64,000 nucleotides of DNA from Azolla caroliniana. Taxonomy: Eukaryota > Plantae > Polypodiophyta. Below, in pieces: positions 5,781 to 59,819 of the stretch. The number at the start of each line of letters is the position of its first letter. Position 1 is the first letter of the stretch. The notes under the pieces were generated by a model. That model saw only the letters and a program-made list of their open reading frames with translations, was not told where the DNA came from and did no database searches. The DNA is taken from NCBI GenBank assembly GCA_043228905.1, contig JBHGNT010000009.1, forward strand, positions 7,440,001 through 7,504,000, read 5' to 3'. The translations under genes were made by a program, and so were the position numbers.

Positions 5781-5815
<35 letters not shown>

Positions 5816-5999
5816 ATAGTAGTAGTAGCAACAGCAGTAGTGGTAGCAGTAGCAATAGTATAAGCTCTCTGCCATGGCGAGCGGTCTTGCTAAAAGCAGG
5901 ATTCGTACTATTGCGTTGATACCACTGCAGAGAGCCAAGCTTCCTGTTTGGTGAAGATGAACAAGCATTCAGGGTTCAATTTTAGGAAGCAACAAGAGA
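3307..5999 (+). CDS. HAM: GRAS transcription factor, HAM/SCL6/LOM subfamily. Intronless; 3' end lost in the assembly gap; apparent frameshift at ~5905-5918
   Basis: 870-aa ORF with 'EPTSVLD..RSPSPSSTSTLSSS', 'QAILARLNQQ', 'IHKIGAFKRFCELSPIPQFAHF..NQAILDA', the VHIID variant 'IHIIDFELGFGGQWASLIQE', 'IERLILGPKIE' and 'PWRAVLLKAGF'. The SAW domain continues in the +1 frame from 5918 as DTTAESQASCLVKMNKHSGFNFRKQQE up to the gap. Confidence 0.93.
3847..3900 (+). repeat. 27-bp in-frame tandem duplication (DCNLSGMIP x2) in the HAM N-terminus
   Basis: gactgtaatttgagtggaatgattcct / gactgtaatttatctggaatgattcct; the copies differ only at synonymous positions. Confidence 0.9.
4767..4787 (+). promoter_or_regulatory. 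miR171 target site
   Basis: GATATTGGCGCGGCTCAATCA is the exact complement of miR171 (UGAUUGAGCCGCGCCAAUAUC) and overlaps the ILARLN codons, as in known HAM/SCL6 genes. Confidence 0.97.
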
Positions 6000-6099
6000 N
6001 NNNNNNNNNNNNNNNNNNNNNNNNNNNNNNNNNNNNNNNNNNNNNNNNNNNNNNNNNNNNNNNNNNNNNNNNNNNNNNNNNNNNNNNNNNNNNNNNNNN
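6000..6099. other. Assembly gap (100 N, placeholder length)
   Basis: Exactly 100 N; the HAM frame does not resume on the right side. Confidence 0.99.
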
Positions 6100-33872: not shown

Positions 33873-35550
33873 AGAAGCATGTGAAAAAGGTTTTGGAAGA
33901 TTTAACATGTCGAAAGCAAAACCAATAGCGCCTGCCTTGTCGACAAAGTACAAGCTGAATGCTAGGCAATGTCCGAAAAACGAAAAAGGACAAGGACGAG
34001 ATGAGGAAAGTACCATATGCCTCGGCCGTTGGTAGCTTGATGTATGCTATGGTCTATACAAGACCAAACATAGCATTTGCGGTCAAAATAGTAAGCCGAT
34101 ATATGAGTAATTCAGGAAGAGAATGTTACCCGCAAGAATATACGGGGAGGCATAAGGGTATGTGTAATGATGTGGTTGATGTGTATGTGTAAAGTAAATG
34201 AGTGTGTGAGGATGAGTATGTGTATGGACACATGCACAATTATATGCATGTGTACAAGAATGTGTAACGGTCTTATTTATAATGGTCATGTAACCGTTAC
34301 ATTGGATGTATTATATAAACCCTCTATGGGGTATGTAATGAAATATACATTTCCCCCCTCTCATTTGGTGTCATTTTCTATTTGTCTTTCTCTCTCGCTC
34401 TCTCTCTAACGTAACCCCCTTGGGACGGGGGTGAAGCCATTCTAGGCTTCACCCCCCACCCCAACAACACTTTTGGCACGCCGGGTGTGTTGTTGGGGTG
34501 GGGGGTGAAACCATTCGTCCCAAGGGGGTTACGTTAGAGAGAGAGCGAGAGAGAAAAACAAATAGAAAATGAAACCAAATGAGAGGGGGGAAATGTATAT
34601 TTCATTACATACCCCATAGGGGGTTTATATAATACATCCAATGTAACGGTTACATGACCGTTATAAATAAGACCGTTACACATTCTTGTACACATGCATA
34701 TAATTGTGCATGTGTCCATACACATACTCATCCTCACACACTCATTTACTTTACACATACACATCAACCACATCATTACACATACCCTTATGCCTCCCCG
34801 TATATTCGTACGGGTAACACATGACACACCTGTGGGACAGTGCATTGCACGGTGAACCCACTCGCCATGGCAACTCTTCTCGACCGGAACTCCATCGGTC
34901 GTCTCAATGGTCGGAAATCCCTTGACCGGATCACAGCTCTACGATCGATAACTTCAATCGGATCTTTGCTTGACTCGAGCCTTCTCGTTCGGTCAACACA
35001 AGTCACGATTGGATCATACACCAATCAGCTAGTTCAATGTGGCATGGGTCGTGAAATCGTGTTGTGCATTTGTGTATTCTTTCTTTCATCATGTGAAGTG
35101 AGTTTTATATTTTTTACCATTTGGTCTTTAAAATTTTTACCCTCAAATTTTTTGAAATTTTATTTTCGGTCCTTGTGTTTTCGAAATTCTGCATTCTGCC
35201 CTCCAAAATTTAAAATCTCATGTCATGCCCTTGAGCTTTTGAAATTTCATCTTCTCTGCCCTTATACCCTTGAGCTTTTATAATTTTATCTTTTGCCCTC
35301 CAGTTCTTAAAATTGTGATAATGCCTTTATGTTTTTGAAATTTTTCTCTTTTCCCCTTTCTCTTCTCTTTCTTTGATTTTTGAAATTCGTATTCCAGCCT
35401 TTCAATTCTAGCAGATGGCGGCGGCGACAACAATGGCAGCGGCAGCAGCAACGATGCCGACGGTTGTGATGGTGGCAACGATGGCGGCGATTGCGGCGGC
35501 GGCAATTCACATCTCCACGATGGATATCAGGCCCTCTATCTCAATATTGC

Positions 35551-35790
35551 TTAGGCCTCATATTGATGAAGTCTTCTCTTTTTAGCATCAACAACCAATT
35601 TTACATCCTCTATTCTTTTGGCCTCTACTTCAACTCTCAATTTCACTTGACACTCACATTCTTCTCGAGCCAAAGCTTCTCCCTTTTTAGCATCCGCTTC
35701 TCTTCTAAATTTCCTTTCTTCCACCTGTGAACCTCTGCAATTGAGCATTGGTATTGTTTGTCTATGCGGCGTGCAAGCTCTCTTTAATTC
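35551..35790 (-). pseudogene. GLE1: Captured fragment resembling the coiled-coil region of the mRNA export factor GLE1
   Basis: Broken translation 'RELARRIDKQYQCSIAE / SQVEERKFRRE...EALAREE' versus plant GLE1 'KEVERKLDLQYQRKVAE...SQIEERKIR' (from memory), with an internal deletion and frameshifts. Confidence 0.55.
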
Positions 35791-35801
35791 CTCTTCTCTT
35801 T

Positions 35802-36223
35802 CAACCCATTGATCTGAACCCGAGTGATGAGTGGATTAACATGGCCATGGCAGGTGTTCCACCACATCTGATCATGAAGAGTGCTTTGAAAGGGATTGCT
35901 TTCTGGATTGGCTAGAAGGATGTTGAAATATAGCTAACAGTGAAGAAGGCTCAACATTTGCGGCAGAGATACAATGAAATGCAGGCAAAGTTTGTGGAGA
36001 AGATGGAGCTTGCTCAAGTAGCTTACAGAAAGTGATGAGATAGGCTTAGTCTCTTAGGAATGAATATGATAAACTGAAGAAATCCACAATACAACAATCT
36101 TGTAGAGATCCATTTCCAATACAGAATGGAGTACGACCAATGTTTTCTGAGCCTTCAGGATTTGAAGATTTATCCGCACACCATCACGGTCGTGGTGCTT
36201 CATCTGCTATTCCTCCAGTGACT
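35802..36223 (+). pseudogene. HEI10: Captured intron-free fragment of the meiotic crossover E3 ligase HEI10 (CCNB1IP1), post-RING coiled-coil region
   Basis: QPIDLNPSDEWINMAMAGVPPHLIMKSALKGIAFWIG*KDVEI*LTVKKAQHLRQRYNEMQAKFVEKMELAQVAYRK, then SLRNEYDKLKKSTIQQ. Compare plant HEI10 (from memory) 'PVDINPNEEWINMAMAGISPQILMKSA...MQAKFSEKMEQVHTAYQK...LRSEYESVKR.AIQP'. Both stops are TAG where Gln is expected. Confidence 0.85.
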
Positions 36224-38758
36224 TGATTTCTAGCCTGCAACGAGACCTTGAGCTCCTCCTGACCTCAATAACCTTCTGAACAATAGTATGTACCAGAACA
36301 AACTTCAACCATGAAGTCAGCCAGATAGTTTACAACTACTCGGGGTCCATCCAATGCTCTCCAAACTTGCTTCTTTCACCTATGAAGAGACCATCCTCTA
36401 GCTTGGGAACAGAATATACGTATGAACATAATAGAAGCTGAGGAATGAGAATGCAAAAATCATCATCCATCTGCTTTTGTGGTGAATGTTTGTTGAATCC
36501 CTTGACCAATAATGTAAAAGTTGTTGAGAAGGTTGTACTTTCTTGTGGCAAAGTTGCATATTAGTAATAGAGCTTCTCTTTTCTGCCTTTTAAGTTGCTT
36601 TGACCCTCATCACTGCAGAGGGGCAATGGCCAAGGAACAAAAGGAACATGAAAGAGAATGGGATGAAGGCAGAAAGAGTGGTGACCACGATCTTAGTGAT
36701 CGCAGAGAAGGAGTTGGTTCTCTCAATCTCCTAGGCCACAAGTTTGTCAGAGAACGTCTTCAATGTGGCCATAGCCCGCACCAACATCGTGAAGATCTCC
36801 TCAGCCAGGACTCAGAGCAGTATAGGTGGATGAGGACAGCTGATGGTTGTGGTGGGGAGCTTGGGCTTTTTCCGTGAGAACATGCTTGCTTCTTCGTCGT
36901 CGTCCATTGCTGTTGTTGCTGTTGCAGCTCGCCATAGCCAAAGCTCGACGAGTTCTGTTTGTTCGTAGGGAGAGACACAGAGAGAGAGACAGACAGAGAA
37001 AAAGAGAGATAGAGTAAGACTATTGTGGATATCTCTATCAGAGGTTGGCTCTTCCACAGAGAGTTCATGCACAAATCACACTCAAAGACGAACACACAAA
37101 GAGGGGGCAAGAGAGAGATTGATAATGGAGAGGGAAGAGTGAGGGATAGACTTCCTCTCAAGGGAGGTCGTCCCACCAAGCGTGCCAAAAGTGTTGTTGG
37201 GGTGGGGGGTGAAACCTAGAATGGCTTCGCCCCCATCCCAAGGGGGTTACGTTAGAGAGAGAGTGTGAGAGAAAGACAAATAGAAAATGACACCAAATGA
37301 GAGGGGGGAAATGTATATTTCATGTTGAGAATCAAGCTCAACATGGTCTAGTGTGTGAACTCACCTTGAGAGTGAATAGACACTCCAACGGTCAAGAGTC
37401 ACCATAATGTCACCTCTTTGTATTCTAGCATTTAGTATGAGTCATAGAATCATATTCTATGACACATAACTTATTAGCTTTCACATTCCCCATGCTCCAT
37501 GAGTCTTGTAGTTAATGAAGAGAGAGGGTGACTATATAAAGCACCCTCCTCCCACCTTGTAGTTGGTTGAGTCTTTCTCGTTTGTTAATATACTTTTACC
37601 TTGCGTACTCTCTGTGTCTTACTCCTTGTCTCTTCATTCTCTCTCTCTCTCTCTCATACACACACACAGTTCACACCTATTCTGCTACACAAGAATCATA
37701 CCCGATTCTTTACAAGGTATCAGAGCGATTTGGTAGCTCGATCTAGCCCATTCGCCTCATCGTGATCGTGTGTTGTGCTCCACGCCGACGACCAAGAACC
37801 GGCTCATCGCTATCGTAGCTTCGCTACATAGCTCGCATTCGAAGAGAGGAGAAGAAGAAGAAGAAGAGTCGACATAATGAATACTCAAATGGGGAGCGCT
37901 CTCCCTACCGAGAAGTTGGATCGAAACAACTTCGCATCTTGGGAGTACAAGATGCACCAATACCTTGTCGGACAAGGCTATTGGAGCTACATCAAAGGAG
38001 CGCATGAAGACTGACCCGCCGAAGCAGCTCCCGGATACGCGACATGGCAGCAAGCCGCAAGCCACGTGATGTATTGCTTGGCGACATGTGTTCACAATCA
38101 CATGCTCGGCTACATTCGCGAAGCCAAGACGCCAAAGGAGGCATGGGAAAATCTACGAAAGATTTTCGTGGTGAACACAACCGCAAGAAGGCTTCAACTC
38201 CGCCAAGAGTTGAACAACATTCAACAAAGGGACATGTCCATTACGACATACACCTCAAAGATCAAGGAGCTTTGCGATTCGCTCGGCTCAATAAGCGTAA
38301 ATATCGATGATGATGAGATGGTTCAAATATGCCTCGGTGGCCTCGCACCACGGTTCGGCCCGATGCGAACCGCCGTTCTAGCACGGGAGAAATCTCCCTC
38401 CTTCTTCGAGCTCCAATCAATGCTATTGGTCGAAGAAAACCACGTGCGTACAAGGAGCAATGAGTCGGAAGGCCACATGCTCTACACGCACTCGAACGGA
38501 GGAAGAGGACGTGGACGAGCAAGAGGCCGATTCGGCCAAGGACAAGGCGGATGAGGTCTGACCTACGATAACAACTTCCAATTTCGGCCGCAAAACGGAA
38601 GCCAACGAGGAACCTTCGAAAGAAGGGGGAGCTTCCACTCCAGCCCGAGCCGTCAAAATGCAACCGAATGCGGATATTGCGGAAAGCTCGGCCACCACGA
38701 AGAAGAGTGTCGAAAGAAGATGCGCGAAACGGCTTCCACAAGCCGACAACTCACGAAT

Positions 38759-38934
38759 TACGCGTACAATTCTGACTACGAAGAGTATAGCGGAATGTAC
38801 GGGCACAACTCCGACTATGAAGATTGTGGCGGAATGTATGCACACAACTCCGACCTGGCGAAATGTACGGGCACAATTCCGACTACGAAGATCGTGGCAG
38901 AATGTATGCACACAACTCCGACCGTGGAGGAATG
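38759..38934 (+). repeat. Five tandem 29-39-bp units between the zinc knuckle and protease of Copia D
   Basis: Units of ta(c/t)g..cacaactccgactacgaaga..gtggcggaatg encoding Y(A/G)HNSD(YED)xGGM. Confidence 0.85.
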
Positions 38935-39656
38935 TTCATGATGAAACATAGAGCAAACTCTATGTCGGCCTCTACCTCAACTAGTGCCTCCGGTTCGGAA
39001 GACGTATGGTTCGTCGATTCCGGTGCTTCTAACCATATAACATCGCATCAAGAATGGTTTCGAGAACTTCGATAGCCGGACCTACCCGGCTATGTCGAAA
39101 CCGAAGACGACACTACGCACCCGATTCGACACATCGGCAATGTTCCATTCAGAAAAGAAGGTAAGCAAAATTACATTAAAAATGTCTTGCATGTACCGAC
39201 CATTACGAAGAATTTGGTCTCCGTCGGCCAAATTGTAGAGCAAGGGATGCAAGTTCGATTTAATCAAGGCGGTTGCTTCATCAAAAAAGAGGGTCGACTC
39301 ATCGCACGCGGAAGAAGAGAGGGTCGGATGTTCATTCTTGATTCACACGAGATGAAATCCGCCATGTTCGTGAAAAGCACGAAAGCCGACTCCAACATAG
39401 AGCTATGGCATAAGCGAATCGGCCACATCAATCTCAATAAACTCAAAGCAATGAAATCGAAAGGAGTCGTCATCGAACTCCCGACATTCAAAGAGAAGGA
39501 GATTGAAGGTGTATGGGAAGCGTGCCAATTCGGCAAACAACACCAACACCCATTCCCGAAAGAGCGGAACGTGAGCAAAGGTCTACTCGACGTAGTCCAT
39601 TCCGACGTATGGGGACCGGCACAAACGGCTACATTCGGCAAATGCTGATACTACGT

Positions 39657-40304
39657 TGTCGTGAAGAAAACCGTCCCCTGGCGTAATCGGTGAATAGCAC
39701 ACAGGAACCGGCCCTTCACGTGTGCTCTCTCTTAATATATATAATAGAGAATTAGGTACAGAGAGAGATCCGGGGTAGTTAGATTTGGTAGGTAGGAAGT
39801 AAATGAGGGAGACAGCTCCCCTCTTGACGTTATAAAGGAGAGGGAGACGCAGGGAGAGAAGGAGGGGCATTAAGGAGGACGAAGTGTTGTCGAACCGAGA
39901 CCGAACGCTTCTCCTCTGTCTGTTCTCTGTTGCCCTTCTCTGCAGGTTTCGGGAGGCTCGCGCTGCTTCGAGGAACGCCCGTGTGCTCCCGGCAGGACCT
40001 CCATCCTATTCCCATTTCGTGTGTAGACGAACAGGCATCGGCATCTGTCCGCCGGCCTGTTCGGTTGTAGCTGCTCGCGTGTTCTGCTGTGTACTCATTA
40101 TTCGTTAATATACAAACACTTGCTTCTTCCTGTCTCTGTGTCCCTTCGCGTCTTCTATGTTGACGGGCCACGCCCCTGTGTTTCTTTGCTCATACGTGAC
40201 CGGGCCTCTCTCTCCTTCTCTTTCCCCTTCTATCACCTGCTCTTCGGTTCAAGACCCCGGTGGTCCCGCCTTGTTTCTCCACGCACGCGCGTAACAACGC
40301 GACA
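39657..40304. mobile_element. 648-bp solo-LTR-like insertion with a 4-bp TSD in the integrase of Copia D
   Basis: tgtcg...cgaca; ACGT at 39653-39656 and 40305-40308; removing it restores 'YYVLFIDDFSR'; TATA-like ttataaa near 39830. Confidence 0.85.
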
Positions 40305-41233
40305 ACGTGCTCTTCATCGACGACTTCTCTAGGAACACTTGGATCTACCCAATGTGGCAAAAGAGCGAAGTGTTCGGACACTTCCAAACATTCAAGAATG
40401 AAGTCGAGAAAGCCACAGGATGACATGTACGTTGTCTTTGATCGGATGGCGGCAAGGAGTACTTCTCGGACGATTTCACGGCGTATCTCCGAAAGGAAGG
40501 AATTCGGCGAGAATTCACTTGCCGACACACTCCGCACCAAAATGGAGTAGCTAAGCGCAAAAATTGGCACATCCTCGAAGTAGCGCGGGCCATGATGAAC
40601 GAGAAGCATATGCCCAAGTCATATTGGGCCGAAGCTGCAATTACGACCGTCTACCTAATGAACCGATGCACAACATCTGGCGTGCACGAGGTCACTCCGC
40701 ACGAAAAATACTTCGGAAAGAAGCCAGACTTATTGCACACCCGGATATTCGGCACGATAGTGTACGTGCACATTCCCGACGAGAAGCGTCAAAAGCTTGA
40801 CCCAAAGTCGGAGAAATGTATCCTCGTAGGATACTCACTGGAGCAAAAGGGGTACAATTGCTACAACCCCGCAACTCGAAAATCTCGAGTAAGTCGAGAC
40901 GCCATTTTTTACGAGTCCGCATCCGGGTATGCACCAGAGACGACTCCGACTCCGACTCCGCTCAACCCGGAATCCGCCGAACCAGAGATAGAGGATGAAG
41001 ATCGCCTTACGCGCATGGTCAAAGAAAGTCTGATCACGACCCAACTGAGCGGACCACAAGAGCCTTTGAGCGATCAAAGCACATCACGGCCTAGCCCGAA
41101 GATGGACAAAGGCAAGGCGAAAATGGCGGAATTTGCAGAGATGAGTCGACTCACTCACTCGACAGTGAGTTCGGCGGCTTCGATGTACCAATCGGAGCTA
41201 AGAAAGACCTCATCTCTGCAAATAAAAAACTCC

Positions 41234-44200
41234 TGTCATGATATGGCAAGACTCGAACCCATGACCTTATGCTACATGGGTCGACCTCTTGACCATTAGA
41301 CTATACATTGTAATACGTAAAATATTATTTTCATTTATGTTTTATTATAGAAAATTGATGTATATTCCAGATTTCTCTGGAACATTCTAGAAACTTCAGG
41401 AGTTTTCCTTAGAACACTATAAAAGGAGGCACAAGGCATTATTTCGAACCAAATCGGTTCAACGCTAGTCTTAAGCCTCCTAGCTACTGTACATTTTCTT
41501 CACATAATATATATCTTTTCTTATCATCACTCACTCTCTCTCTCTCTCTCTCTCTCGATCTCTCTCGATCTCTCTCTCCCTCCCTCTCAGTCAATCTTCC
41601 CTTCTCTCGAGAGTTCTTCACCTCTCTTAGTACTAATACTTCTTTTAGTACTAATACTTCTTTTAGTACTAATTCCTTCTTTGTCTTAGTACTGTTCCTG
41701 ACAATTTGAACCGATTTTCCTACCTTCTGTCTCTCTCATTTCCTACTAATCTCTTATTCCTCTTTTCTTTCATCCCATGGCCACTATTAGCACTGATGAA
41801 TATCAATCTGTTTTCTTGGAATTTCAATGCTTGAAAGAGAAGTTCCATGCTTTGGAACAAGAAAACCAACGGTTGCTGGGGGATCTTTAGCAAATCTCCT
41901 TAGAAAGCAGCAAACGCAACAATAGCATGGGGAACTTGTGTTACGCGTGCAACAACTCGAAGCAACCATCGTAGCGATGCAACAACAAGGGCCCGAAACG
42001 CAAGGGATTCATAAAGAATCCAAGATTGGCCTTCCCACGAAGTTCGATGGAACGCGATCGCAGTTTAGAGGGTTCCTTAACCAGGTACGATTAGTTATTC
42101 AAATGCATCCTTCCCGATATCCCACCGATGCATCACGAGTGGGTTTAGTAGGCACTTTGTTAAGTGGCTCAGCGTTGGCATGGTTCGCTCCACTATTAGA
42201 AAAGGAATCTCCATTACTCAACAATTTTGAAGAGTTTCTAAGTGAGTTTAAAGCATGTTTCGGAGATACTAACAGCATCAGGACCGCAATCAACAAAATT
42301 CGGCGATTACGCCAAGGTGACCGTCCAACCTCCGCATACACTGCAAATTTTCGCCTACTCGCCGCCGATATCCCTTGGGATAATCAAGCGTTGATGGAGC
42401 AATTCCGTTATGGTTTACGCAACGACGTCAAGGATTTACTCTTAACCTTCCCCGAAGAGCCAAAGTCCTTAACAGAAGCAATCAGTCGCGCGGTGAGATG
42501 TGACAACCACCTCTTTGAGCGACGTTCGGAACGACAGCTACAGATGCCGAGGGCAAGATCAGAGCCCACCTACGCCTCAGTGGTAGCAAGACCTTTTCCG
42601 AGGGAGTCATATAATGCGCCTCTAGCGAATACTCCGACTCCGATGGAGATTGACACTACACGTCGTCGAGGGCCATTATCCGAAGAAGAAAAATAGCGAC
42701 GCCGTACAAATCGACTATGTCTTTACTACGGTGGACCAGGACATATTGCAATAAATTGCCCCCATAGGCCAAGAAGACAGGTAAACCAAATAGTCGCTAG
42801 TTCTAATTGTACTAAACCCGAGCCTATTTCAGTAGGGATATCTGATAGTCCTAATAGTACTAATAGCCCAGATCTAGCGAACAGATTTGATGTCCTTAGT
42901 CAGTTAGAAGAAGAGTTAAACGACTAAGTCCAGCCAAAATAGGAGCCGTTTGGTTGGATAACCCTAGATCTGTGCAGCCCATTAGTGGTTCCATTCCCTC
43001 TAAGCAAGTTAGTGATGTGTTTGTAGCCCAAGTAATAGTTAGTACTAAAAGTACCCCTCCAGTACATGTCCTAGCACTCCTAGATTCCGAAGCTAACTCT
43101 TGCTTTATGGATAAGAAATTTGATCAAGCTCATAAGATATCCCTAAGAAAACTCTAGTGTCCAGCCTCTATAGTAGTCATTGATGGACGTCCAATTGCTC
43201 CCGGAAATATCATAGAAGAGTCAGAGCCCATTAATATTGTCCTAGATAACTTAGCATGTGTAGTATCATTTAATATTATTAGTATCCCAGAACATCCCAT
43301 AGTTTTAAGATTACCGTGGTTCGAGTTACATACCCAGACATAGATTGGAGAACAAGAGAAATCCGGTGTCAACAAACCCAAGGGTCAACTCAGAAGATGG
43401 CAACCATTTCGCTACGTCAGTTGCGTAAAGAAGGGCGCAAGGAGGAAATGTTCCTCTTTGCAATATCAGTAAACCCCTCCAGCACCACTAAAGAAGAATC
43501 CACCGTTCAACTTCCCGAGAAGTGTCGTCATTACGCCGATGTGTTCGATAAAGTACAAGCCAATACACTTCCTCATCATCGACCGTACGATTGCCCCATC
43601 GATTTACAACCGGGAAAAGAGCCGCCATGGGGACCGATCTACAATTTGTCACCAACCGAGCTAGAAGTCCTTCGGGCCTATATAGAGGAGAATTTGGAAA
43701 ATGGTTTCATTCAACATTCCAAATCTCCAGCCGGCGCGCCCATTTTCTTCGTCAAGAAAAAGGATGGATCGCTTCGTCTCGTTGTAGATTATCGTGGCTT
43801 GAATAAGGTTACAATCAGGAATAGGTATGCTCTTCCCCTTATCTCAAGTCTTTTAGAATGGATCAGTGGTGCCAGGTTCTTCACGAAGATCGACTTACGG
43901 GGAGCATATAACCTCGTACGGATCCGACCAGGAGACAAATGGAAGACCGCGTTTCGCACCAGATATGGGCACTTCGAGTATAGGTCATGCCGTTCGGCCT
44001 CATTAATGCGCCGGCAGTCTTCCAGCACATGGTTAATGATATATTCCGAGATCTATTGGATGATTGTTTGATCATCTATTTGGATGATCTACTGGTTTAT
44101 TCAAAGACCCAAGAAGAACATGATTCTCATGTACTATTAGTACTAAAATGACTTCAAGAACATGGGTCTGTATGCAAAGCTGGAAAAATGTAGTTTCAGG

Positions 44201-46940
44201 TGCAACCAAGTGGAATTTCTCGGCTACATCATTTCGTCAGAAGGCATCTCCATGGACCTAGCTAAGGTTAAAACGGTGGTAGAATGGCAGACTCCGCATT
44301 CAGTGCGGGATGTGCAATGCTTCCTAGGCTTTGCCAATTTTTACCGGAAGTTCATACAAGATTACTCAAAGATCGTTCTACCTCTCACACAACTTACCAG
44401 GAAGGGACAACCGTTCATCTGGTCTGAAGAAACGGACATGGCTTTCGAGATTCTTAAAAAGGTCTTTACATCGGCTCCAATTCTAGCTCATGTAGATCCA
44501 GAAAAACCATTCATTATCGAAGCTGACGCATCGGATTTTGCATTGGGGAGCATTCTGTCACAACAAGGGAATGATGAGAAGCTACATCCTGTGGCTTTTC
44601 ACTCACGCAAGTTTGACGCCGCCGAAATCAACTACGAAATTCATGATAAGGAGCTATTGGCAATAGTGGATTCTTTTATGCAATGGAGGCATTTTCTGGA
44701 GGGTTCCTCTCATCCGGTCACCGTATTTAGTGACCACAAGAACCTTGCCTACTTTCAGGATGCTCGTGTGTTAAATCGACGTCAAGCTCGGTGGGCCCAC
44801 TTCCTCACGTATTTCGACTTCAAAATTAAATATCGTCCGGGGAGGCACCAAGGGAAGGCAGATGCATTATCACAACGTTTGTATCTAGCACCCCGTCCCG
44901 GCGAGCCAGCTTTCGATAACCTAAAACAAGTCATCTTGGGACCGGCACAACTACAAGCAACACAGATCTTTGACATGCCCATGGATTCCAGCGTTATCGA
45001 TACCATATACGAAGACTTGAAGACAAATGCGTTCGCCCAAGCTATACTAGCACAAATTGATCCCTCTCGAGCATCGTGTTCACAGTCGCAACCACCAGGT
45101 ACGGACTATCGGCAATTCAAATACCATGATGGATTACTCTTCTTTAAAGAACTTTTGTATGTTCCTAATGGTTCTTGCCGCTTTCAAGTAGTACAAAACT
45201 GTCATGACACATATACAGTTGGGCATTTTGGTAGTACTAAAACATTACATTTAGTACAACGATCATTTTGGTGGCCCTATATGTGACAATTTGTCGAGGA
45301 TTTTGTTCGGACTTGTGATACATGCTGCAGAGCGAAAATGCCAAGGCATCATCCATATGGTTTATTAGAACCATTACCAATTCCAAGCAAGCTGTGGCAA
45401 TCCATTGCTCTAGACTTCATCACAGATCTTCCAATCTCTAAGGGGTTCAATGCGATTCTAACGGTGGTTGATCGATATACGAAGATGGCTCATTTCTTGC
45501 CATGTACTAAGGAGATCTCCAGTGAAGACACTGCCGAAATTGTCATGTGTGAAGTATGTCGGCATCATGGACTTCCCGATAGTATCATCAGCAACCGTGG
45601 ACCCCAGTTCGTGTCAAAATTCTGGAAGCACCTTTTTAACACGCTCAAGGTCATTTGTAACCTCTCCTCCGGCTACCACCCACAAACCAACGGCCAAGCG
45701 GAACGAACCAATCAAACGCTGGAGCAGTATCTATGATGCTTTCTCAACTATCATCAGGATGACTGGGCAGATATTCTCCACTTCGCCGAATTTGCCTATA
45801 ACAACTCTATCCACGTATCCACTAAAGTTATGCCATTTTATGCTTATACGGGATGTCACCCCTGGTGGTGTGTACTTGAAACCCTAGAGGTGTCCACAAA
45901 TCCTTGCGCAGAGGATCGTTTGGAGAGGTTACGCAAGATACAAGCGGATTTATCTACTCATCTCCAACAAGCTCAACAAACACACAAGGTTTATGCGGAT
46001 CGTCATCGACTCCCATCTAGTTTTAACATTGGAGATTGGGTATGGCTACTCCGATGACACATCAAGACTACTCGCCCATGCGAAAAGTTGGATTATCAGC
46101 GATTAGGTCCTTTCCGTATTATAGGAAAGATTAATGATGTCGCTTTTCGTCTTGATCTACCTCCACAACTTCGGATACATCCGATGTTTCATAGTTCTCT
46201 CCTCGAACCCTATCAAGAGAGCACCATCCCAGGACGTATTACATAGCCTCCACCCCCGATCGAGCTTGAAGATGGACCTGAGTACGAGGTTGCCGCCATC
46301 CTTGATTCCAAGCTTGTTCGCAACAAGCTCTACTATCTAGTCGATTGGCTACGATATAGTCCCAGCGAGCGTACTTGGGAACCGATAGAGAATGTCACCA
46401 ATGCTCGTGCTCTTCTTGAAGACTTCCATCGTCAATATCCAGACAAACCGGGTCCTCAATCCAAAACGACTCGTTACACTTGTCGTTTTAAAGGGAGGAT
46501 AGTGTCATGATATGGCAAGACTCGAACCCATGACCTTATGCTACATGGGTCGAGCTCTTGACCATTAAACTATACATTATAATACATAAAATATTATTTT
46601 CATTTATGTTTTATTATAGAAAATTGATGTATATTCCAGATTTCTCTAGAACATTCTAGAAACTTCAGAAGTATTCCTTAGAACACTATAAAAGGAGGCA
46701 CAAGGCATTATTTTGAACCAAATCGGTTCAACGCCAATCTTAAGCCTCCTACCTACTGTACATTTTCTTCACATAATATATATCTTTTCTTATCATCACT
46801 CTCTCTCTCTCTCTCTCTCTCGATCTCTCTCTCCCTCCCTCTCACTCACTCTTTCCTTCTCTCGAGAGTTCTTCACCTCTCTTAGTACTAATACTTCTTT
46901 TAGTACTAATTCCTTCTCTGTCTTAGTATTGTTCCTGACA
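41234..46940 (+). mobile_element. Ty3/Gypsy chromovirus E, Tcn1/Tf1-sushi-like, nested in Copia D. LTRs 41234-41703 and 46503-46940
   Basis: TSD actcc/actct; sushi-type gag (PTKFDGTRSQFRGFLNQ), protease ALLDSEA, RT ([21 protein letters not shown]), RNase H, integrase, chromodomain EYEVAAILDS..YYLVDW..YSPSERTWEP; PPT aaagggaggatag; no tRNA PBS. Confidence 0.95.
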
Positions 46941-49150
46941 ACTCTGTCGCTCCACCCGTGAAAAGAACCCCGTAAGTCGATTCGGCTACAACAATTATAT
47001 GGCATACCATTATGCCTTTGCGATGAAGGTGGCGACAGTACACAAGCCGGAAACTTTTTCCGAAGCAACCAAGGATCCGCGATGGATCGAAGCCATGAAC
47101 GAGGAGTTGCAGGCACTATGCAAGAACGAGACATGGGATCTCATTCCCACCTCACCACACAAAAAGGCGATCGGATGCAGATGGATTTACAAAGTGAAGT
47201 ACAACGTTGACGGTTCCGTCAACCGCTAAAAAGCGCGACTCGTAGCGAAAGGCTACGCCCAAACGCATGGAGTTGACTACGAGGAGACCTTTGCCCCGGT
47301 GGCAAAGATGACGACGGTACGGACCGTAATTGCGCTTGCCGCGGCGAAAGGGTGGCACCTCCATCAAATGGACGTCAAGAACGCCTTTCTACAGGGCGAA
47401 TTAGAAGAGGTGTACATGATACAACCACCCGACTTCGAATCACGCATTCATCCGAAAGTTGTGTGCCGACGCAAGAAGCCACTCTATGGCCTCAAGCAAG
47501 CACCGCGTGCTTGGCATTCGAAGATAACGCAATATCTTCATCAAATCGGCTTCCATATGTCAAAATCGGATAACTCCCTCTACATACGAAGCGATTCCGC
47601 AAGCCCGATCGTCATCATCTTATATGTGGATGACCTAATCATTGGAGGTGAGCATCTCGTCAAAATCAATAAGGTCAAATCCCTCCTTTCTGACAAGTTT
47701 GAGATGACGGACATGAAGGAGCTCCACTACTTCCCCAGCATCGAGGTAATTCGGACTCCGGCCGGAATCATGATCTCTCAATGGCACTACATCCTCAACT
47801 TGTTATACAAGTTCAGGATGGTTGAGTGCAAATCTGCGACAACCCCACTCGATCGCAATCTCAAACTCGATTCGAACTCCGGCACCAAAGCGTGTGAGCC
47901 GACCCAATATCGGCAACTCATCGGAAGTCTCATCTACCTCACGATCACATGACCCGATCTCAGTTATCCGGTCGGTCTCCTTAGCCAGTTCATGCAAACA
48001 CCGCGTGACACTCACTTGGATTGCGCTAAGCGAGTTCTACGATACGTGAGCGGCACAATGGATTGTGGCATCCTCTACAAGACTGCGATGCCAATACGAC
48101 TCGAGGGGTACACAGACGCCGATTGGGCCAGCTACAAAGCCGATAGAAGATCAACCTCCGGATTTGTTTTCTCCCTCGGCAGCGGAGTAATATCCTGGAG
48201 TAGCAAGAAGTAGCCTACCGTCGCTCTTTTGAGTACAGAGGCGGAATACAGGGGACCAGCCGTAGCTGCATGTGAAGTCGTATGGCTCAAGAGGATTTTG
48301 AAGGATCTAGGCGTTCCCATCAAAGATCTGACTCCCCTTTACTGCGACAACATGAGCAGTATTTATTTGGCTCGGAACCCGGTGTTCCACGCACGGACAA
48401 AGCACATCGAAGTGCACTATCACTTCATTCGAGAGCGCGTTCTAGCTGGCGATGTCGACCTACAACACATTAGCACCAATCTTCAAACGGCCGACATCTT
48501 CACTAAAGCTTTAGGAGCCGACAAGTTAAGGCAATTCATGACCGATCTCGGATTGACGATCCCTGACCTGCCAAGCTTGAGGGGGCAAGACACTACGCAA
48601 TCGCAATAACGCGTAGATTCCGCAACCGCGCAATGAAGCCGCGAAGAGCCGATCTACCGCGCAAAGCCGCGAAGAAAGACGCAAGCTGAAGCACAGACTT
48701 CGCAACTACACACAACGCAAGCTGGAGCACGGATTCCACAACTCCGCATAAATGTGAGTCGACACGGATTCCAGAACGCGAGTCGAAGCGGATTTCGGAT
48801 ACCGTCTGAAACCGGCCCGACTTGAGCTTGAGGGGGCGTGTTGAGAATCAAGCTCAACATGGTCTAGTGTGTGAACTCACCTTGAGAGTGAATAGACACT
48901 CCAACGGTCAAGAGTCACCATTATGTCACCTCTTTGTATTCTAGCATTTAGTATGAGTCATAGAATCATATTCTATGACACATAACTTATGAGCTTTCAC
49001 ATTCCCCATGCTCCATGAGTCTTGTAGTTAATGAAGAGAGAGGGTGACTATATAAAGCACCCTCCTCCCACCTTGTAGTTGGTTGAGTCTTTCTCCTTTG
49101 TTAATATACTTTTACCTTGCGTACTCTCTGTGTCTTACTCCTTGTCTCTC

Positions 49151-49197
<47 letters not shown>

Positions 49198-49850
49198 CAC
49201 ACACACAGTTCACACCTATTCCGCTACACAAGAATCATACCCGATTCTTTACATTTCATTACATACCCCATAGGGGGTTTATATAATATATCCAATGTAA
49301 CGGTTACATGATCGTTATAAATAAGATCATTACGCATTCTTGTACACATGCACATAATTGTGCATGTGTCCATACACATACTCATCCTCACACACTCATT
49401 TACTTTACACATACACATCAACCACATCATTACACATACCCTTATGCCTCCCCGTATATTCTTACGGGTAACAGGGAACACTAGGCAGCTATAAAATGGA
49501 TACTCATGTACTTGAAAGGCACCTCAAGGGTATGCCTCAGTTATGGTTTCAGAAAACCTATGCTCAAAGGTTTTACCAACTCAGACACATCAAGTTATGT
49601 GATGACCTATGCATGAGGAGCAGTGTCATGGCAATCGAGATTACAAAAGGTTGTGGCTTTGTCGACCACAGAGGCAGAATATATGGCTGCAATAGAGGTT
49701 AGAAAGGAGCTAATATGGATGAAGAATTTTCTCAGTGAATTAGGAATGAAACAAGAAAAATTCTTACTCCATTGTGACAATCAGAGTGCCATACATCTAA
49801 CTAAGGACGCTGCTTACCTCTCCCGGACCAAGCACATACAAAGAAGATAT

Positions 49851-50000
49851 CACTGGTTACGAGACAAAGTGGATGAGGAAGAGTTTACCCTTGTGAAGAT
49901 CCATATTGATGGTAATGGATCTGACACTGGTTACGAGACAAAGTGGATGAGGAAGAGTTTACCCTTGTGAAGATCCATATTGATGGTAATGGATCTGACA
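49851..50000 (+). repeat. Perfect 74-bp tandem duplication in the RNase H of Copia F
   Basis: cactggttacgagacaaag...ggatctga occurs at 49851 and 49925, with CA microhomology. Confidence 0.92.
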
Positions 50001-50879
50001 TGCTCACGAAAACCCTACCTATGGATAGACTCAGAGCTTGTTGACAGAAGACTAGATTAGTTGACTCTCCTTATAAGAGTGAAGGGGGAGTTTGTTAGGG
50101 TTTTGTCCCTCCTAATGAGAGAAGTTGGTAGTCGAATTGGAGGAGTTGACAAACCGAATTCAAGATGGTCGATCAGATCAACCAGCGAATCAACTTGGTA
50201 GTCGACTAAGTATAGGAATAATGGTAGTCAAATGTATTGGATGGATGATCCAAGTGAAAGACTAGGCCGACTAGTCGGCCTGACCTGATGGTCGAAGACT
50301 AGGCCAACTAGTTGGGCCGACCTGATGGTCGAAGACAAAGTCTGATAGTCAGACCGACTGGATAGTCGACATAGGAGTCGGCTAGTCGAATCGACTAGAC
50401 TGTCGACTTGTGGGTCAGACAGTCAAGTCGACCAGTCGATTAACTGTTGTTATTATTATTATATAATAATAACGCTTTTATAAATATGTGGAGCTAGGGA
50501 AAACTTTATAGGGAAGAAGGTGAAAGTTGAGTGTAATATAGTAGTACTACATAGAGAAGGAAGGAGACAAGAGAGGAAGTGAGTGTAGGCATGGTTAGAG
50601 GAACTTGCCAAAACCCTAAGTGGGGATTCTCTGATCATCAAAGATTTGTAATCTGTTTTTCTTGTACTTCTATCCATAGTGAAAAATCTATTGCCCCATG
50701 GTTTTTCCCTGTTTTAGGGTTTCCACGTAAATGTTGTGCACTGTGTATTTTGTTTTCTGTTTTGTGCTTTCAGCTCATCCTTCTTGCTTAACCTACGGTC
50801 CTAAATTCAACAAAAGGTATAATGTGTAGAGTGCAAAGGTATTGAGTAATCTTTTATCTGCATCTATAAGGGTTGTCAT

Positions 50880-52528: not shown

Positions 52529-55500
52529 TATTATAGATCTTAGTACTAATGTAAGCTTAAGATAAGGATAAAGTAATGATAGATAGAAAGGAGAAAGAGA
52601 AAGAAGGGTGCTGATCCACCCGACCACCCCCGAGCGAAGGGATCGAGACGGACTCGAGCCTCGATCGGCGTCCCATACCACCGCCGTGGCATCAAGTCGT
52701 ACCTGGTGCTGGCGCGCTCGCTACAAGAGTTGACCCACCACACGAGCAGAGTCTCGATGTAGTCAAAAGATGATCCAATGAGGGTAGCTAGGCCTCTTAT
52801 TTATAGCGATACCCAAGGCCCCCAAGCAAGTTCACAGTTGACCTAATGGGTTGTCTCAATCCCGAGGATTAAAAGTAATCCTCCCCTTCTTTACACTCTC
52901 GTTTAACCCTCACACTTATCCATGTGTATAGAATACTACGGTAAATTCTTACCACGGGATATTATATGGTCATGCCCGTAACATACTCCCCCTCTTTAAA
53001 ACATTGCACTCTTGCAATGGAAAGTTAGGGAAGTTAGTTCTAAGAGTATTTTCGCGTTCCCATGTGGCATCTTTTATTGATTTATCCATCCATTTTATTT
53101 TAAATTCTCGGATTTCTTTAGTACGTAATTTTTTTGTTTTAACATCGAGAATTCTTTCTGGTACATGTGGTTTAGAAGATAATTCTTCAGAAGTAACCAG
53201 AGTTTTAGTCGTAACTGTATTGTCGCCAGAACCTAGAAGTTCTTTTAGACGACTCACATGAAAGACTAGATGAATTCCGACACCATCGAGAAGAACGAGA
53301 CGATAGGCTGATGACCCAATGCGTTTGAGGACTGTAAAAGGTCCACAAAACCGTGGGGCTAACTTAGCGCACTTACCTATAGACAATGTCTTAGAATTGT
53401 GAGGTACACGTAAAAATACCTTCTGTCCAGGGTTGAATACACGAGGTTGCCTATGATGATGGGCATAAAAACGCGCTCTATCTTGAGCTGTTTTTATATT
53501 ATCTCATGCAATATGCAACATATCTTGCATATCCCGAAGAAAGTTTTGCGTACTTCGCAACTCATCATGATGTATATTAACATCAATCGGGGCTCGTGGC
53601 TGAAAACCATACATCAACATAAAAGGACTATATCCCGTCGACGTATGCTTGGAGCTGTTATAAGCAAACTCCAAAATTGGGAGATAACGTTCTCATTTTG
53701 TTGGTTTTGCACCAACGTATGCTCGAAGCATGTCCTCAATAATTTGATTTACTCGTTCTGTCTGTCCATCGGATTGAGGATGATCCGTGGAGCTCATGCT
53801 CAACGTAGTTTCTAACTTCTTAAAGACTTGTGTCCAGAAGTCACTAGTAAACTTTGGATCTCGATCACTCATGATATCCATCGGTAACCCATAAAAACGA
53901 AACAATTCGTCAACGAATTGGTAAGCCAATTCAGGAGCTGTTACCGTGGTTTTAGTAGCAATAAATCTGGCCATTTTAGTTAGTCCGTCAACAACAACCC
54001 AGATGGCATCATGACCTTTTTGGGTGTGAGGAAGGCTAACAATAAAATCCATGGATATACTTTCCCACTTATTATTGGGAATGTCCAAGGGATGTAAAAG
54101 TCTTGCGGCTTTAAGTCGCTCGGCTTTGTTAACCTGACACTGGTGACATTTAGTCACATAGCTATGTATGTCAGGACGCATCTTAGGCCAATAAAATTGA
54201 GTGAAGATGAGAACAAGTGTACAATGTATTCCAGGGTGCCCTGCTGAGGGTGCATCATGGCATTCAAAAAGAATCCGCTTTTTGACCTCGGGTAAATCTG
54301 GAACACAAACCTTCCCATTATGGTAGAGCAAATTGTTAGCAATGTGGAAGTATTCCTTCAAGGATGTGGTGGTGTCTGTTCCAGACTCAACTCTTGCCCA
54401 GTATTTTGCGAAATAACTGTCATCAGGATACTTTCCTCGAAGGTGATCATAAAGATCTGATGATATTGCAGTGAAGCTAAGCATGTTAACTTCACGGATG
54501 CGACTTAGTGCATCAGCGACAGTGTTCATGGAACCTTTACGATATCGTATGGAAAAATCAAAGTCCTGGATGAGATCAGCCCATCGTGCCTTACGACCTT
54601 TCAGGTCTTGTTGGTCACAAAAATATTTCAAGGACTCGTGGTCCGTAGTTACCACAAAGTGATTTCCATAAAGATAATGGCGCCATGTTTTGAGCGCATG
54701 TATAACTGCAAATAATTCCTTTTCTTGAACGGTATACCGACATTGAGCAGAATCAAGTTTCTTACTCTCGAATGCTATTGGTTTACCATCTTGATACAAG
54801 ACAGCACCTATAGCATAATCGCTTGCATCGGTTTCAACCTCAAAAGGTTTTGAAGGATCAGGTAAAAGAAGTGAAGGAGCCTTGCAAACCAGGTCCTTGA
54901 GTTCCTTAAAGGCAAGGTCTAGTGTAGCATTCCACACAATAGGTTTTGTAGACTTACGCGTTTGACCTTTTAAAAGATCAGTAAACGGCATCGTCAATTG
55001 GGAGTAATTACGAAGAGACTTTCGCAAAAACCCCACAAAACCAAGGAATGATCGAACTTCTCGAATATTCTGAAGAGTGGGCCAAAGCTTGATTTTCTCA
55101 ATGCGAGAAGGATCAATTTCAACTCCTCGTTCGGTTATGAGATGTCCTAGATAAGTAATTGATTTCTTGAAGAACTCACATTTTGAGATCTTTGCATAAA
55201 ACTGTTTGTCACGCAATGTTTGTAAAACAAAGCGGACATGTCTAGCATGTTCTTGTAATGTACGGCTATAAACTAAAATATCATCCAAGAAAATAACGAC
55301 AAATTTTCCAAGTTGTTCTCGGAAAATGTCATTCATTTCTTGTTGAAAAGTAGTCGGAGCATTGGTCAAACCAAAAGGCATAACCAAAAACTCATAATGG
55401 CCATAGTGCGTACGAAATGCCGTATTAGGAACATCGTCCTCACTTATTCGTATTTGATGGTAGCCAGTACGGAGATCAAGTTTCGTAAAATACCGAGCTC

Positions 55501-58500: not shown

Positions 58501-59541
58501 TACGTATATATGTGACCACATATGCCTATATTAAACATATCGTTATATTAAATAGCCACAAATGATGTGATCGAGATACGTAATCGAGGTATATACCTCT
58601 ACGCACACGAAACATCCACAAATAAGAGATCATCGTAATACGTAATTGAGGTATTGACCTCTTACGCATACGAGACCAACCGCATATCGTTTACAACAAA
58701 TCAAGGTATTAAACTCATACGCAAATGTAACATATGTTCGTGAACGTAATACGTAATTGAGGTATTAACCTCGTACACATACGACACTCATCACATATTA
58801 TTAATATGTCAAACGAGGTATTGACCTCGTGCACATATGTAAACGTTTTAGATAATCAATTAAAGACCACTACAACATCATTGACTTAATGAAAAAAATT
58901 GACATATAAACTAAACACATGATTAGATGGGAGAAGAGAGAATAGAAAGAAAAATTATGGAAAGAGTTACCGAAGTTCTTTGTTGATCGTTGTTTGGATC
59001 AAGGCCAACCGCACAACGATCGATCAGCATCAATCAAAAGACAAATGAAAAACAAAGAAACATTAGTACAAAAATCTGATACCAAATATTATAGATCTTA
59101 GTACTAATGTAAGCTTAAGATAAGGATAAAGTAATGATAGATAGAAAGGAGAAAGAGAAAGAAGGGTGCCGATCCACCCGACCACCCCCGAGCGAAGGGA
59201 TCGAGACGGACTCGAGCCTCGATCGGCGTCCCATACCACCGCCGTGGCGTCAAGTCGTACCTGGTGCTGGCGCGCTCGCTACAAGAGTTGACCCACCACA
59301 CGAGCAGAGTCTCGATGTAGTCAAAAGATGATCCAATGAGGGTAGCTAGGCCTCTTATTTATAGCGATACCCAAGGCCCCCAGGCAAGTTCACACTTGAC
59401 CTAATGGGTTGTCTCAATCCCGAGGATTAAAAGTAATCCTCCCCTTCTTTACACTCTCGTTTAACCCTCACACTTATCCATGTGTATAGAATACTACGGT
59501 AAATTCTTACCACGGGATATTATATGGTCATGCCCGTAACA
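52529..59541 (-). mobile_element. Young Ty3/Gypsy chromovirus G. LTRs 52529-52983 and 59087-59541 (455 bp each); single-frame gag-pol 57403 to ~52970 with a few point stops
   Basis: About 4 substitutions between the LTRs by eye; TSD ctggg/ttggg; iMet PBS complement tctgatacca ending at 59084; PPT complement tactccccctcttt. Motifs: gag CVFCKKKGH, LFDSGSSHNF, RT FLDD, RNase H, integrase, chromodomain-like PERILD..KW...DATWE. Confidence 0.95.
58575..58840. repeat. Five 55-62-bp degenerate tandem units, each with a GAGGT-N4-ACCTC hairpin core, in the long 5' leader of element G
   Basis: Cores at 58586, 58648, 58703 (degenerate), 58759 and 58815. Confidence 0.8.
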
Positions 59542-59819
59542 TTGGGCAACCCATTCTTGGGCAATTATGTGTGCCATTTGAGCTAAGCGTAAGTCTAATC
59601 AATTCAACGCTATTTTTCTCAACCGTATGTACTATTCGAGCAATTGTGCATCCCCCCAATAATGAGTGTATCTCTTCATGTGGAGTTGTTCGCGAAACTA
59701 CTTGGAAGTTAAGGGAGACAATGAGAAAAAGTGTGGGTTTTTGGTTTTGGGACAATGAAAGAGACCATCAGAAGTGCAAGCTTTGTGTCAGCTGTATGAA
59801 CTTTGAAGTTTGAAGAAGG

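What the first reader, a model, noticed from the sequence alone, without database searches (positions are those of the whole stretch)
34124..49473. Three-LTR element with two outward-facing U3 ends under a single TSD: possible fossil of aberrant integration
Seen: the order is TSD(gagaa), LTR>, 14 of the 18 PBS nt, <3'LTR, <internal, <PBS, <5'LTR, TSD(gggaa). Both outer ends are the same LTR end (tgttaccc.../...gggtaaca). The middle LTR's U5 end is intact and joined directly inside the PBS (tggcacgccgggtg|tgttgttgggg), and the host Copia RT frame rejoins exactly (NSGRE|H*AAIKW). Inference: ordinary nesting followed by LTR-LTR recombination cannot leave a U3 end at both TSD copies. The structure fits a single-ended autointegration of the U5 end into the opposite strand at the PBS, or into a second cDNA, followed by fill-in and integration through two U3 ends.
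Basis: partly seen in the sequence, partly recalled or inferred. Interest (0 to 1): 0.8.

Follow-up and report, generated by a model that had tools for sequence, protein, structure and literature searches.

The report
Three-LTR retrotransposon with two front ends
A plant jumping gene sits here with an extra, flipped copy of its end-repeat, so that both outer ends are the same "front" end under one insertion scar; it is likely a one-off copying accident that the insertion enzyme still accepted, and it is predicted not to be copied onward in this form.

Summary
The structure is real in the assembly: GAGAA, LTR1>, 4-nt spacer, 14 of 18 PBS bases, <LTR2, <2.3-kb internal part, <PBS, <LTR3 (split by a nested Copia), GGGAA; both outer ends are U3. 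Host-family contigs run straight across the site, so the 5-bp duplication is genuine. All three LTRs share a rare allele, so LTR1 is no stranger; two sites weakly suggest a sibling template. Best reading: a hybrid made before integration, a finished cDNA whose U5 end was joined to a dead-end plus-strand strong-stop DNA (LTR plus part of the PBS), then inserted through two U3 ends. Single-ended integrase attack gives the same sequence and is the close rival; nesting plus microhomology deletion is a minor one. No reads of this locus were found, so misassembly is unlikely but untested, and recurrence is unsurveyed. The scan has noted U3-U3 insertions (one in this genome, several in others) and the PPT-less lineage before, on other DNA. 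Verdict: new variant of a known kind of aberrant integrant.

The parts
33950..34118 (+). Host Copia-type RT coding remnant, left of the insertion
   Evidence: Translation ...SRYMSNSGRE; host-family contigs lie on it
34119..34123 (+). Left target-site copy GAGAA
   Evidence: no other-letter row at 34120 in 4 of 4 runs at a 10% threshold, so A is likely the host-family letter
34124..34469 (+). LTR1, complete (TG...CA, 346 nt), U3 end outward; perfect U5 hairpin 34427-34456
34470..34487 (+). 4-nt spacer plus first 14 nt of the PBS: with LTR1 the shape of a truncated plus-strand strong-stop DNA
   Evidence: 14 of 14 identical to the PBS of a related family in L001/L002; differs from the element's own PBS at positions 9-10
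34488..34819 (-). LTR2 = 3' LTR of the inner two-LTR element; terminal CA joined directly to PBS14, spacer lost; 14-nt loss and loop inversion in the U5 hairpin
34820..34860 (-). No PPT: 2-nt spacer and a tRNA-3'-end-like site (17 nt at 34822-34838) inside a T-arm-like stretch with a small inserted hairpin
   Evidence: 14 of 18, one gap; family contigs end with the same motif before U3 in 4 of 4 runs; fold no better than shuffles, z -0.23
34839..37169 (-). Internal region, 2.3 kb, non-autonomous: degenerate frame(s) of unknown kind, no gag-pol
   Evidence: 0 Pfam families in 6 of 6 frames at E<=1; no homologue for one frame; related contigs in 4 of 4 runs
37170..37191 (-). Full 18-nt PBS and 4-nt spacer of the inner element
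   Evidence: normal LTR-PBS-internal joint seen in family contigs of X3 and X5 (joint 34482 to 37083)
37192..37322 (-). LTR3, R/U5 half (5' LTR of the inner element)
37323..49253 (+). Later nested Copia (own PBS, PPT, gag-pol remnants, TTTCA duplication), itself holding a Gypsy at 41234-46940
49254..49473 (-). LTR3, U3 half, U3 end outward
49474..49478 (+). Right target-site copy GGGAA (one mismatch, likely the derived copy)
49479..50095 (+). Host Copia RT/RNase H remnant resumes in frame

Best explanation
This is one insertion with three copies of one LTR and a U3 end at both target-site copies; it is likely a hybrid DNA made inside the retrotransposon particle, in which the U5 end of a finished cDNA was probably joined to a dead-end plus-strand strong-stop DNA (LTR plus 14 PBS bases), and which integrase likely inserted through its two U3 ends. 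Steps: (1, shown) the inner unit LTR3-PBS-internal-LTR2 is an ordinary two-LTR copy of a non-autonomous, PPT-less family. (2, shown) the extra piece is exactly U3-R-U5, spacer and 14 PBS bases. (3, from Ty1/Ty3 biology, PMC5371799) plus strands that stop 12 nt into the tRNA are dead-end products that pile up in particles. (4, inferred) the cDNA's plus-strand 3' end, at the terminal CA or one base beyond it, jumped onto the 3' end of such a strand (1-nt overlap) and copied it to its U3 end, or the two ends were ligated; the strand probably came from a sibling RNA. (5, inferred from the 5-bp duplication and TG...CA ends) integrase made a concerted insertion with two U3 ends. (6, predicted) a transcript from LTR3 would regenerate only the two-LTR unit, so the three-LTR form does not spread. 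The umbrella claim (hybrid made before integration, inserted by two U3 ends, joint chemistry left open) I put at about 0.78; this joint mechanism at about 0.47.
For: Break inside the PBS, near where dead-end plus strands stop in Ty3 (12 nt; PMC5371799 passages); Ty1 composite elements joined to the 3' end of a PBS were integrated in vivo (PMC2939329 passages). True 5-bp duplication: host-family contigs run on from 34123 into sequence like 49479+. All three LTRs carry C (or C>T) at LTR position 303 where 98.5-99.5% of family contig depth has G (4 of 4 runs): one narrow lineage, as expected within one particle. LTR2 and LTR3 share derived T at positions 10 and 324, LTR1 keeps the family letter: fits a sibling template. 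PBS14 matches a related family's PBS 14 of 14 and differs from the element's own PBS at 2 of 14; three family contig records stop fitting at 34482, just before the second difference: fits a copy of a tRNA or of another RNA.
Against: The spacer at LTR2's U5 end is gone (3 or 4 of 4 nt), which integrase strand transfer explains more naturally than an RT jump. One site (121) groups LTR1 with LTR2 instead, so the LTR tree conflicts; three shared sites are unlikely by parallel deamination at even rates (P 0.008) but not with 3-5-fold hot spots (P 0.12-0.32). Two PBS differences in 14 nt are not significant alone (P 0.11). The family's real plus-strand stop point is unknown. The right flank begins GGG like the last five PBS bases (GGGTG), which this model leaves to a chance A>G change. 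No listed contig bridges the joint or either host junction (32 of 7869 and 32 of 4518 pieces shown); the runs seem not to carry this locus.
Confidence: 0.47

Rival explanations
1. Single-ended integrase attack: the processed U5 CA end was joined to the minus strand inside the PBS of its own cDNA or of a sibling cDNA; strand displacement and fill-in resolved the branch; the product integrated through two U3 ends.
For: The joint lies at the terminal CA with the spacer lost. Autointegration is common in some plant elements (SISYPHUS; PMC7197481 passages) and in HIV-1 (PMC2644782 passages). The sibling-cDNA version fits sites 10 and 324.
Against: Described products are concerted deletion or inversion circles with sites spread along the element, not chromosomal linear forms. 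An 18-nt PBS is a small target in a 3-kb cDNA. It needs extra steps to lose everything downstream of PBS14 and to refill 364 nt. In the cis version LTR1 and LTR3 should be the closest pair; they are the most distant (14 substitutions, against 7 for LTR1-LTR2 outside the hairpin change).
Confidence: 0.28
2. Nesting plus illegitimate deletion: copy B inserted in reverse into the PBS of copy A (duplicating GGGTG); later a deletion between the short repeats AACAG-G-G (B's U3 end plus its duplication) and AACAG-A-G (A's U5 end plus its TSD) removed the rest of A.
For: Both LTR termini end in AACA on the + strand and both duplications start G-x-G. It explains the right flank GGGAA as a chimera, the host family having A at that place. 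It gives two templates and an integrase-made joint. The region is heavily nested.
Against: Needs B to hit an 18-nt target in a copy of the same rare sublineage (position-303 allele at 0.5-1.5% of depth) and then one particular multi-kb deletion. LTR1 should be the oldest LTR but has the fewest private changes (2, against 3 and 8). A plain A>G change is not rare here (LTR3 has 2 private T>C among 8).
Confidence: 0.1
3. Assembly artefact: a fold-back chimera or a mis-join between LTR copies.
For: A 304-nt inverted repeat at 98% with a short spacer in a very abundant family; no independent contig listed across the joint; the assembly is scaffolded (100 N at 6000-6099).
Against: The arms differ at 7 sites plus a 14-nt hairpin change, unlike a read fold-back. 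Both host flanks belong to one interrupted gene, and each is joined to a U3 end; swapping or inverting between LTR copies cannot create a host-U3 junction. The joint falls on a biologically exact point.
Confidence: 0.04
4. A propagating three-LTR architecture of this family.
For: The family is unusual already (no PPT); recurrence could not be surveyed, as no genome is held.
Against: Family contigs show the normal LTR-PBS-internal joint and host flanks after U5 ends; summed contig depth at the PBS14-LTR2 side is nil (bin 34492-34500, a 9-nt edge bin) and the LTR2 hairpin variant is rare (depth 80 at 34517 against thousands nearby in X1). Standard reverse transcription would drop the third LTR (reasoning).
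Confidence: 0.03

Closest known systems
Ty1 composite elements and dead-end plus-strand strong-stop DNA of Ty1/Ty3 (PMC2939329, abstract and passages; PMC5371799, passages)
   Same: DNA joined to the 3' end of a PBS on a paused plus strand, then inserted with integrase hallmarks; Ty1 integrase accepts any TG...CA-ended DNA; plus strands stop a dozen bases into the tRNA.
   Different: There the partner was transformed marker DNA in yeast; here it is a whole cDNA in inverted sense, fixed in a plant chromosome with two U3 ends.
Template-switch complex insertions with three LTRs under one TSD (Sabot and Schulman 2007, PMC1950507, part 1 of 2 read) and tandem LTR-RT structures (PMC11899658, passages)
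   Same: Three LTRs, one 5-bp TSD, origin proposed in one round of reverse transcription on two RNAs.
   Different: Those hold two internal domains sharing a middle LTR in tandem; here the third LTR is inverted, carries only 14 PBS bases, and both outer ends are U3.
Autointegration products (inversion and deletion circles; SISYPHUS, PMC7197481 passages; HIV-1, PMC2644782 passages)
   Same: A processed LTR end joined in inverted sense to the element's own sequence.
   Different: Known products use both ends, are circular and non-productive; here one end only is consumed and the product was integrated.
2-LTR circle junctions with retained PBS (HIV-1, PMC5618025, passages)
   Same: LTR ends joined across PBS sequence.
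   Different: Those join U5 to U3 in tandem on circles; here U5-PBS14 meets U5 head to head.
Plant non-chromovirus Ty3/gypsy elements (Neumann et al. 2019, PMC6317226, passages)
   Same: 5-bp TSD, full-length non-Met tRNA primer site (tRNA-Arg is recalled and taken from scan notes, not tested here).
   Different: No PPT; no pol in this copy, so no placement by RT.

Membership tests
Integrase-made LTR retrotransposon insertion | TG...CA termini at both host junctions | tested here: met
Integrase-made LTR retrotransposon insertion | 4-6-bp target-site duplication, host otherwise intact | tested here: met
   5 bp, 4 of 5 identical; host-family contigs cross the site
Integrase-made LTR retrotransposon insertion | Outer LTRs in direct orientation (U3 at one end, U5 at the other) | tested here: not met
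   Outer LTRs inverted, both U3 outward; met only for the inner pair LTR3/LTR2
Integrase-made LTR retrotransposon insertion | PBS after the 5' LTR | tested here: met
   37170-37187
Integrase-made LTR retrotransposon insertion | PPT before the 3' LTR | tested here: not met
   15 nt upstream of LTR2 are not a purine tract, unlike the two nested elements
Autonomous Ty3/gypsy element | gag, protease, RT, RNase H, integrase | tested here: not met
   0 Pfam hits in 6 of 6 frames
Autointegration product (inversion type) | Joint at the processed CA end | tested here: met
   Exact, with 1-nt ambiguity
Autointegration product (inversion type) | Both ends joined internally with a 5-bp duplication; circular | tested here: not met
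   Only the U5 end is joined inside; the U3 end meets host DNA
Autointegration product (inversion type) | Joint made by integrase | not testable with these tools
   RT jump and end-joining give the same letters
Sabot-Schulman complex insertion | Three similar LTRs under one TSD | tested here: met
Sabot-Schulman complex insertion | Two complete internal domains around a shared LTR | tested here: not met
   One internal region; 18 nt between LTR1 and LTR2
Composite element built on plus-strand strong-stop DNA | Piece = whole LTR + spacer + part of PBS, ending inside the PBS | tested here: met
   34124-34487
Composite element built on plus-strand strong-stop DNA | PBS part copied from the host tRNA and ending at the family's natural stop | tested here: inconclusive
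   14 of 14 to a related family's PBS; no host tRNA gene at hand
PPT-less tRNA-end Gypsy lineage (scan notes, unchecked) | tRNA-3'-end copy 2 nt before the 3' LTR, family-wide | tested here: met
   loose ends before U3 from 16, 11, 21 and 27 contigs in 4 of 4 runs end in the tRNA-tail motif plus TG, whole-row agreement 0.40-0.47 because host flanks are mixed in
PPT-less tRNA-end Gypsy lineage (scan notes, unchecked) | Placement by RT/integrase phylogeny; priming shown | not testable with these tools
   No pol in this copy; no genome held

The most novel reading that the evidence does not exclude
The locus is a chromosomal fossil of the plus-strand strong-stop DNA of a lineage that primes both strands from tRNA: the extra piece starts at the U3 end that tRNA priming sets two bases from the tRNA-end site and stops 14 bases into the minus-strand tRNA. 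Such U3-U3 hybrids would be a recurrent by-product class in which an LTR element is inserted as a unit with long terminal inverted repeats, and their joints could be used genome-wide to map how this PPT-less lineage starts and ends its second strand.
Probability: 0.3. Interest if true: 0.75.

Novelty: new variant of a known kind. Interest (0 to 1): 0.46.

Why it matters
It shows that a plant retrotransposon integrase can insert a molecule through two identical U3 ends in vivo and that particle by-products usually seen only as dead DNA can be fixed in chromosomes. Such fossils record the end points of reverse-transcription intermediates; here they do so for a family that has no polypurine tract, where plus-strand priming is an open question. 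It also leaves a 98% inverted repeat with an 18-nt spacer, a likely source of hairpin RNA against an abundant family. LTR finders that demand direct repeats with a TSD would miss or mis-date such loci. As a single, likely non-propagating event its weight is moderate.

Tried and rejected
Whole-genome survey: no genome held, so recurrence and a full-length LTR tree were not done. Metagenome scan with a 22-nt LTR motif: 0 loci; second scan with a tRNA-end motif: 2 loci, both 5' LTR-PBS ends of a related family, none showing a 3' LTR. Public runs: best share of words 0.33 among 15 runs; 5 of the 15 were laid; no listed piece spans the joint or a host junction, and the host copy's private letters are absent (for example 34086 in X1), so these runs seem not to hold the locus and say nothing on misassembly. 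Joints such as 34460 to 34529 look like side effects of the U5 hairpin and were not counted as further three-LTR copies. Internal frames: no Pfam family, no homologue for the one frame sent. GRAS search for the plant group gave nothing at E<=1e-60; the group was not determined here. No tRNA gene in the window or L001/L002. Rfam: 14 weak hairpin matches, all below gathering score. The tRNA-like cassette folds no better than shuffles. Star-tree test on private changes not significant (P about 0.08-0.10). Rejected by reasoning: solo-LTR insertion of LTR2 (flanks GGGTG/CATGA do not match); homologous inversion between inverted LTRs (keeps outer ends); copying of LTR1 from LTR3 after insertion (they are the least alike pair). 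Garfinkel 2006 and Shoemaker 1981 were not held and are not used. PMC12312487 and PMC13332604 (passages) gave nothing on this structure.
Full report
OBSERVATION. From left to right: host Copia RT remnant, GAGAA (34119-34123), LTR1 forward (34124-34469), a 4-nt spacer and 14 of 18 PBS bases (34470-34487), LTR2 reverse (34488-34819), an internal region (to 37169), a full PBS and spacer in reverse (37170-37191), LTR3 reverse (37192-37322 and 49254-49473), GGGAA (49474-49478), host remnant. LTR3 is split by a Copia with its own 5-bp duplication (37323-49253). LTR sense is fixed by the PBS after the U5 end and by family contigs with the normal LTR-PBS-internal joint (joint 34482 to 37083 in X3 and X5). 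Both outer ends are therefore U3. The host frame rejoins once 5 bp are removed, and host-family contigs that fit up to 34123 continue with letters like 49479 onward (9 contigs in X1, 12 in X5; 24 of 447 loose-end rows shown). The duplication is genuine. No other-letter row appears at 34120 at a 10% threshold, so the left copy likely keeps the host letter and the right copy is the changed one.

LTR2 has no polypurine tract. Two bases from its U3 end lies a 17-nt site that reads as a tRNA 3' end in the element's sense (14 of 18 with one gap against a related family's PBS; 4 places in the window reach that score, 3 of them this element's), whereas both nested elements have clear purine tracts. 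I noted this before opening the scan's notes. It is family-wide: loose ends before U3 from 16, 11, 21 and 27 contigs in 4 of 4 runs end in the tRNA-tail motif plus TG (whole-row agreement 0.40-0.47, as host flanks of 5' LTRs are mixed in), and the 400 nt next to U3 draw far more contigs than the rest of the internal region (summed depth, not copy number). The cassette's fold is not better than shuffles. Many scan notes report this PPT-less lineage elsewhere in this genome (unchecked AI notes). LTR2 also has a 14-nt loss with loop inversion in its U5 hairpin; the hairpin itself is kept, with paired changes, in a related family (L002). The internal region has no gag-pol (0 Pfam families in 6 of 6 frames; no homologue for one frame), so the inner unit is non-autonomous.

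RELATIONSHIP OF THE THREE LTRs. Substitutions: LTR1-LTR2 7 outside the hairpin change, LTR1-LTR3 14, LTR2-LTR3 11. I polarised the 17 variable sites with family contigs laid at 90% likeness or more (other individuals, depth-weighted, and for several sites the evidence is the absence of a row). Private changes number 2, 3 and 8. LTR2 and LTR3 share derived T at 10 and 324 (the latter a common variant, 21-32%); LTR1 and LTR2 share a rare A at 121 (0.2-0.8%). Three shared sites are unlikely on a star tree at even rates (P 0.008) but not with hot spots (P 0.12-0.32). The simplest account is a sibling template for LTR1 plus one conversion between the adjacent inverted arms; this is suggestive only. 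PBS14 is 14 of 14 identical to the PBS of a related family from another source (L001, L002) and differs from the element's own PBS at positions 9-10 (P 0.11 by chance).

MECHANISM. Homologous recombination cannot put U3 at both TSD copies, since inversion between inverted LTRs keeps the outer ends (reasoning). The molecule was therefore most likely two-headed before it integrated (about 0.78). Ty1 integrase accepts any DNA ending TG...CA (PMC2939329, abstract), so two U3 ends are a plausible substrate. The extra piece has the exact shape of a plus-strand strong-stop DNA cut short in the PBS. In Ty3 the first plus strand stops 12 nt into the tRNA and such dead-end strands accumulate in particles (PMC5371799, passages); in Ty1, foreign DNA joined to the 3' end of a PBS was integrated as a composite element (PMC2939329, passages). 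I therefore prefer one aberrant step: the finished cDNA's U5 3' end, at the CA or one base past it, ran onto or was ligated to such a strand, giving a linear DNA with two U3 ends (0.47). A scan note on an LTR plus 13 PBS bases with two U3 ends in another genome (e1-10283614, unchecked) moved me from the integrase model to this one. The integrase model (0.28) explains the clean loss of the spacer better but has to hit an 18-nt target and shed the rest of the target molecule; described autointegration products are circles with sites spread along the element (PMC7197481, passages). The sequence cannot separate the two. A third route deserves record: nesting of B in A's PBS followed by deletion between AACAG-G-G and AACAG-A-G would give the same layout and would explain the right flank GGGAA; it needs two rare events in one rare sublineage and predicts an older LTR1, which is not seen (0.10). 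Misassembly (0.04) is unlikely because the arms differ and both host flanks join a U3 end, but it was not tested: 5 of 15 runs were laid, none appears to hold this locus, and only 32 of 7869 and 32 of 4518 pieces were listed. A propagating form (0.03) is not expected, as a transcript from LTR3 would regenerate only the two-LTR unit; no genome was held to count copies.

COMPARISON WITH WHAT IS KNOWN. Three LTRs under one TSD are described in cereals as template-switch complexes with two internal domains (PMC1950507, part 1 of 2 read) and as tandem arrays (PMC11899658, passages); neither has an inverted third LTR. PBS sequence at LTR-LTR joints is known from HIV-1 2-LTR circles (PMC5618025, passages). 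Non-Met tRNA primers mark non-chromovirus Gypsy elements (PMC6317226, passages); the name tRNA-Arg is recalled and taken from scan notes, not from a call. Searches for an inverted three-LTR or U3-U3 chromosomal insertion (listings and abstract starts seen) and for PPT-less second-tRNA priming (0 papers) returned no description; the library lacks most subscription papers, including the classic autointegration papers, and supplements were not read. Within the scan, U3-U3 insertions were noted once in this genome (a Copia, e1-10619871) and in several other genomes; none listed has this three-LTR form.

VERDICT. Real in the assembly, most likely a one-off aberrant integrant of a non-autonomous, PPT-less LTR family; it works like a Ty1 composite element built on strong-stop DNA and is not a member of the autointegration-circle or template-switch-complex classes as defined. 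New variant of a known kind; interest 0.46. The most novel reading, a usable fossil of tRNA-primed plus-strand DNA from a recurrent by-product class, has probability about 0.3 and would deserve about 0.75.

Noticed in passing
window 37323-49253 and 41234-46940: The Gypsy nested inside the Copia looks older than its carrier: about 17 LTR differences in 437 nt and a TSD with one mismatch, against 4-6 in 392 for the Copia's LTRs (Fisher P 0.013 for 4/390 vs 17/437). The Copia may have retrotransposed with the Gypsy aboard, or its LTRs were homogenised by conversion.
   Followed up: partly
window 34427-34456; L002 354-384: The U5 hairpin is kept in a related family with paired base changes, so it is likely functional; in LTR2 it is rearranged, which also shortens the perfect palindrome at the centre of the LTR1/LTR2 inverted repeat.
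   Followed up: partly
L002 1-460: A related LTR with the same PBS lies 12 nt from what looks like a second, inverted U3 end (U3 ends facing each other), and its 5' leader runs into exons of a cytosine methyltransferase-like gene (motif recalled).
   Followed up: no
window 35400-36950, minus strand: Degenerate frame(s) with a coiled-coil-like and proline-rich stretch and no Pfam or database match; related longer contigs of 3.3 and 3.9 kb exist in X1 and X3.
   Followed up: partly
window 34461 (24 loose ends): A second LTR subfamily with a different U5 tip is at least as common in the runs as the one here.
   Followed up: no
window 49851-50009: A 74-nt tandem duplication in the host Copia's RNase H region.
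   Followed up: no
window 52529-59542; 3307-5919; 59814-62285; 6000-6099: A young Gypsy (4 LTR differences in 456 nt), a GRAS gene, a long PPR frame and a 100-N scaffold gap.
   Followed up: no
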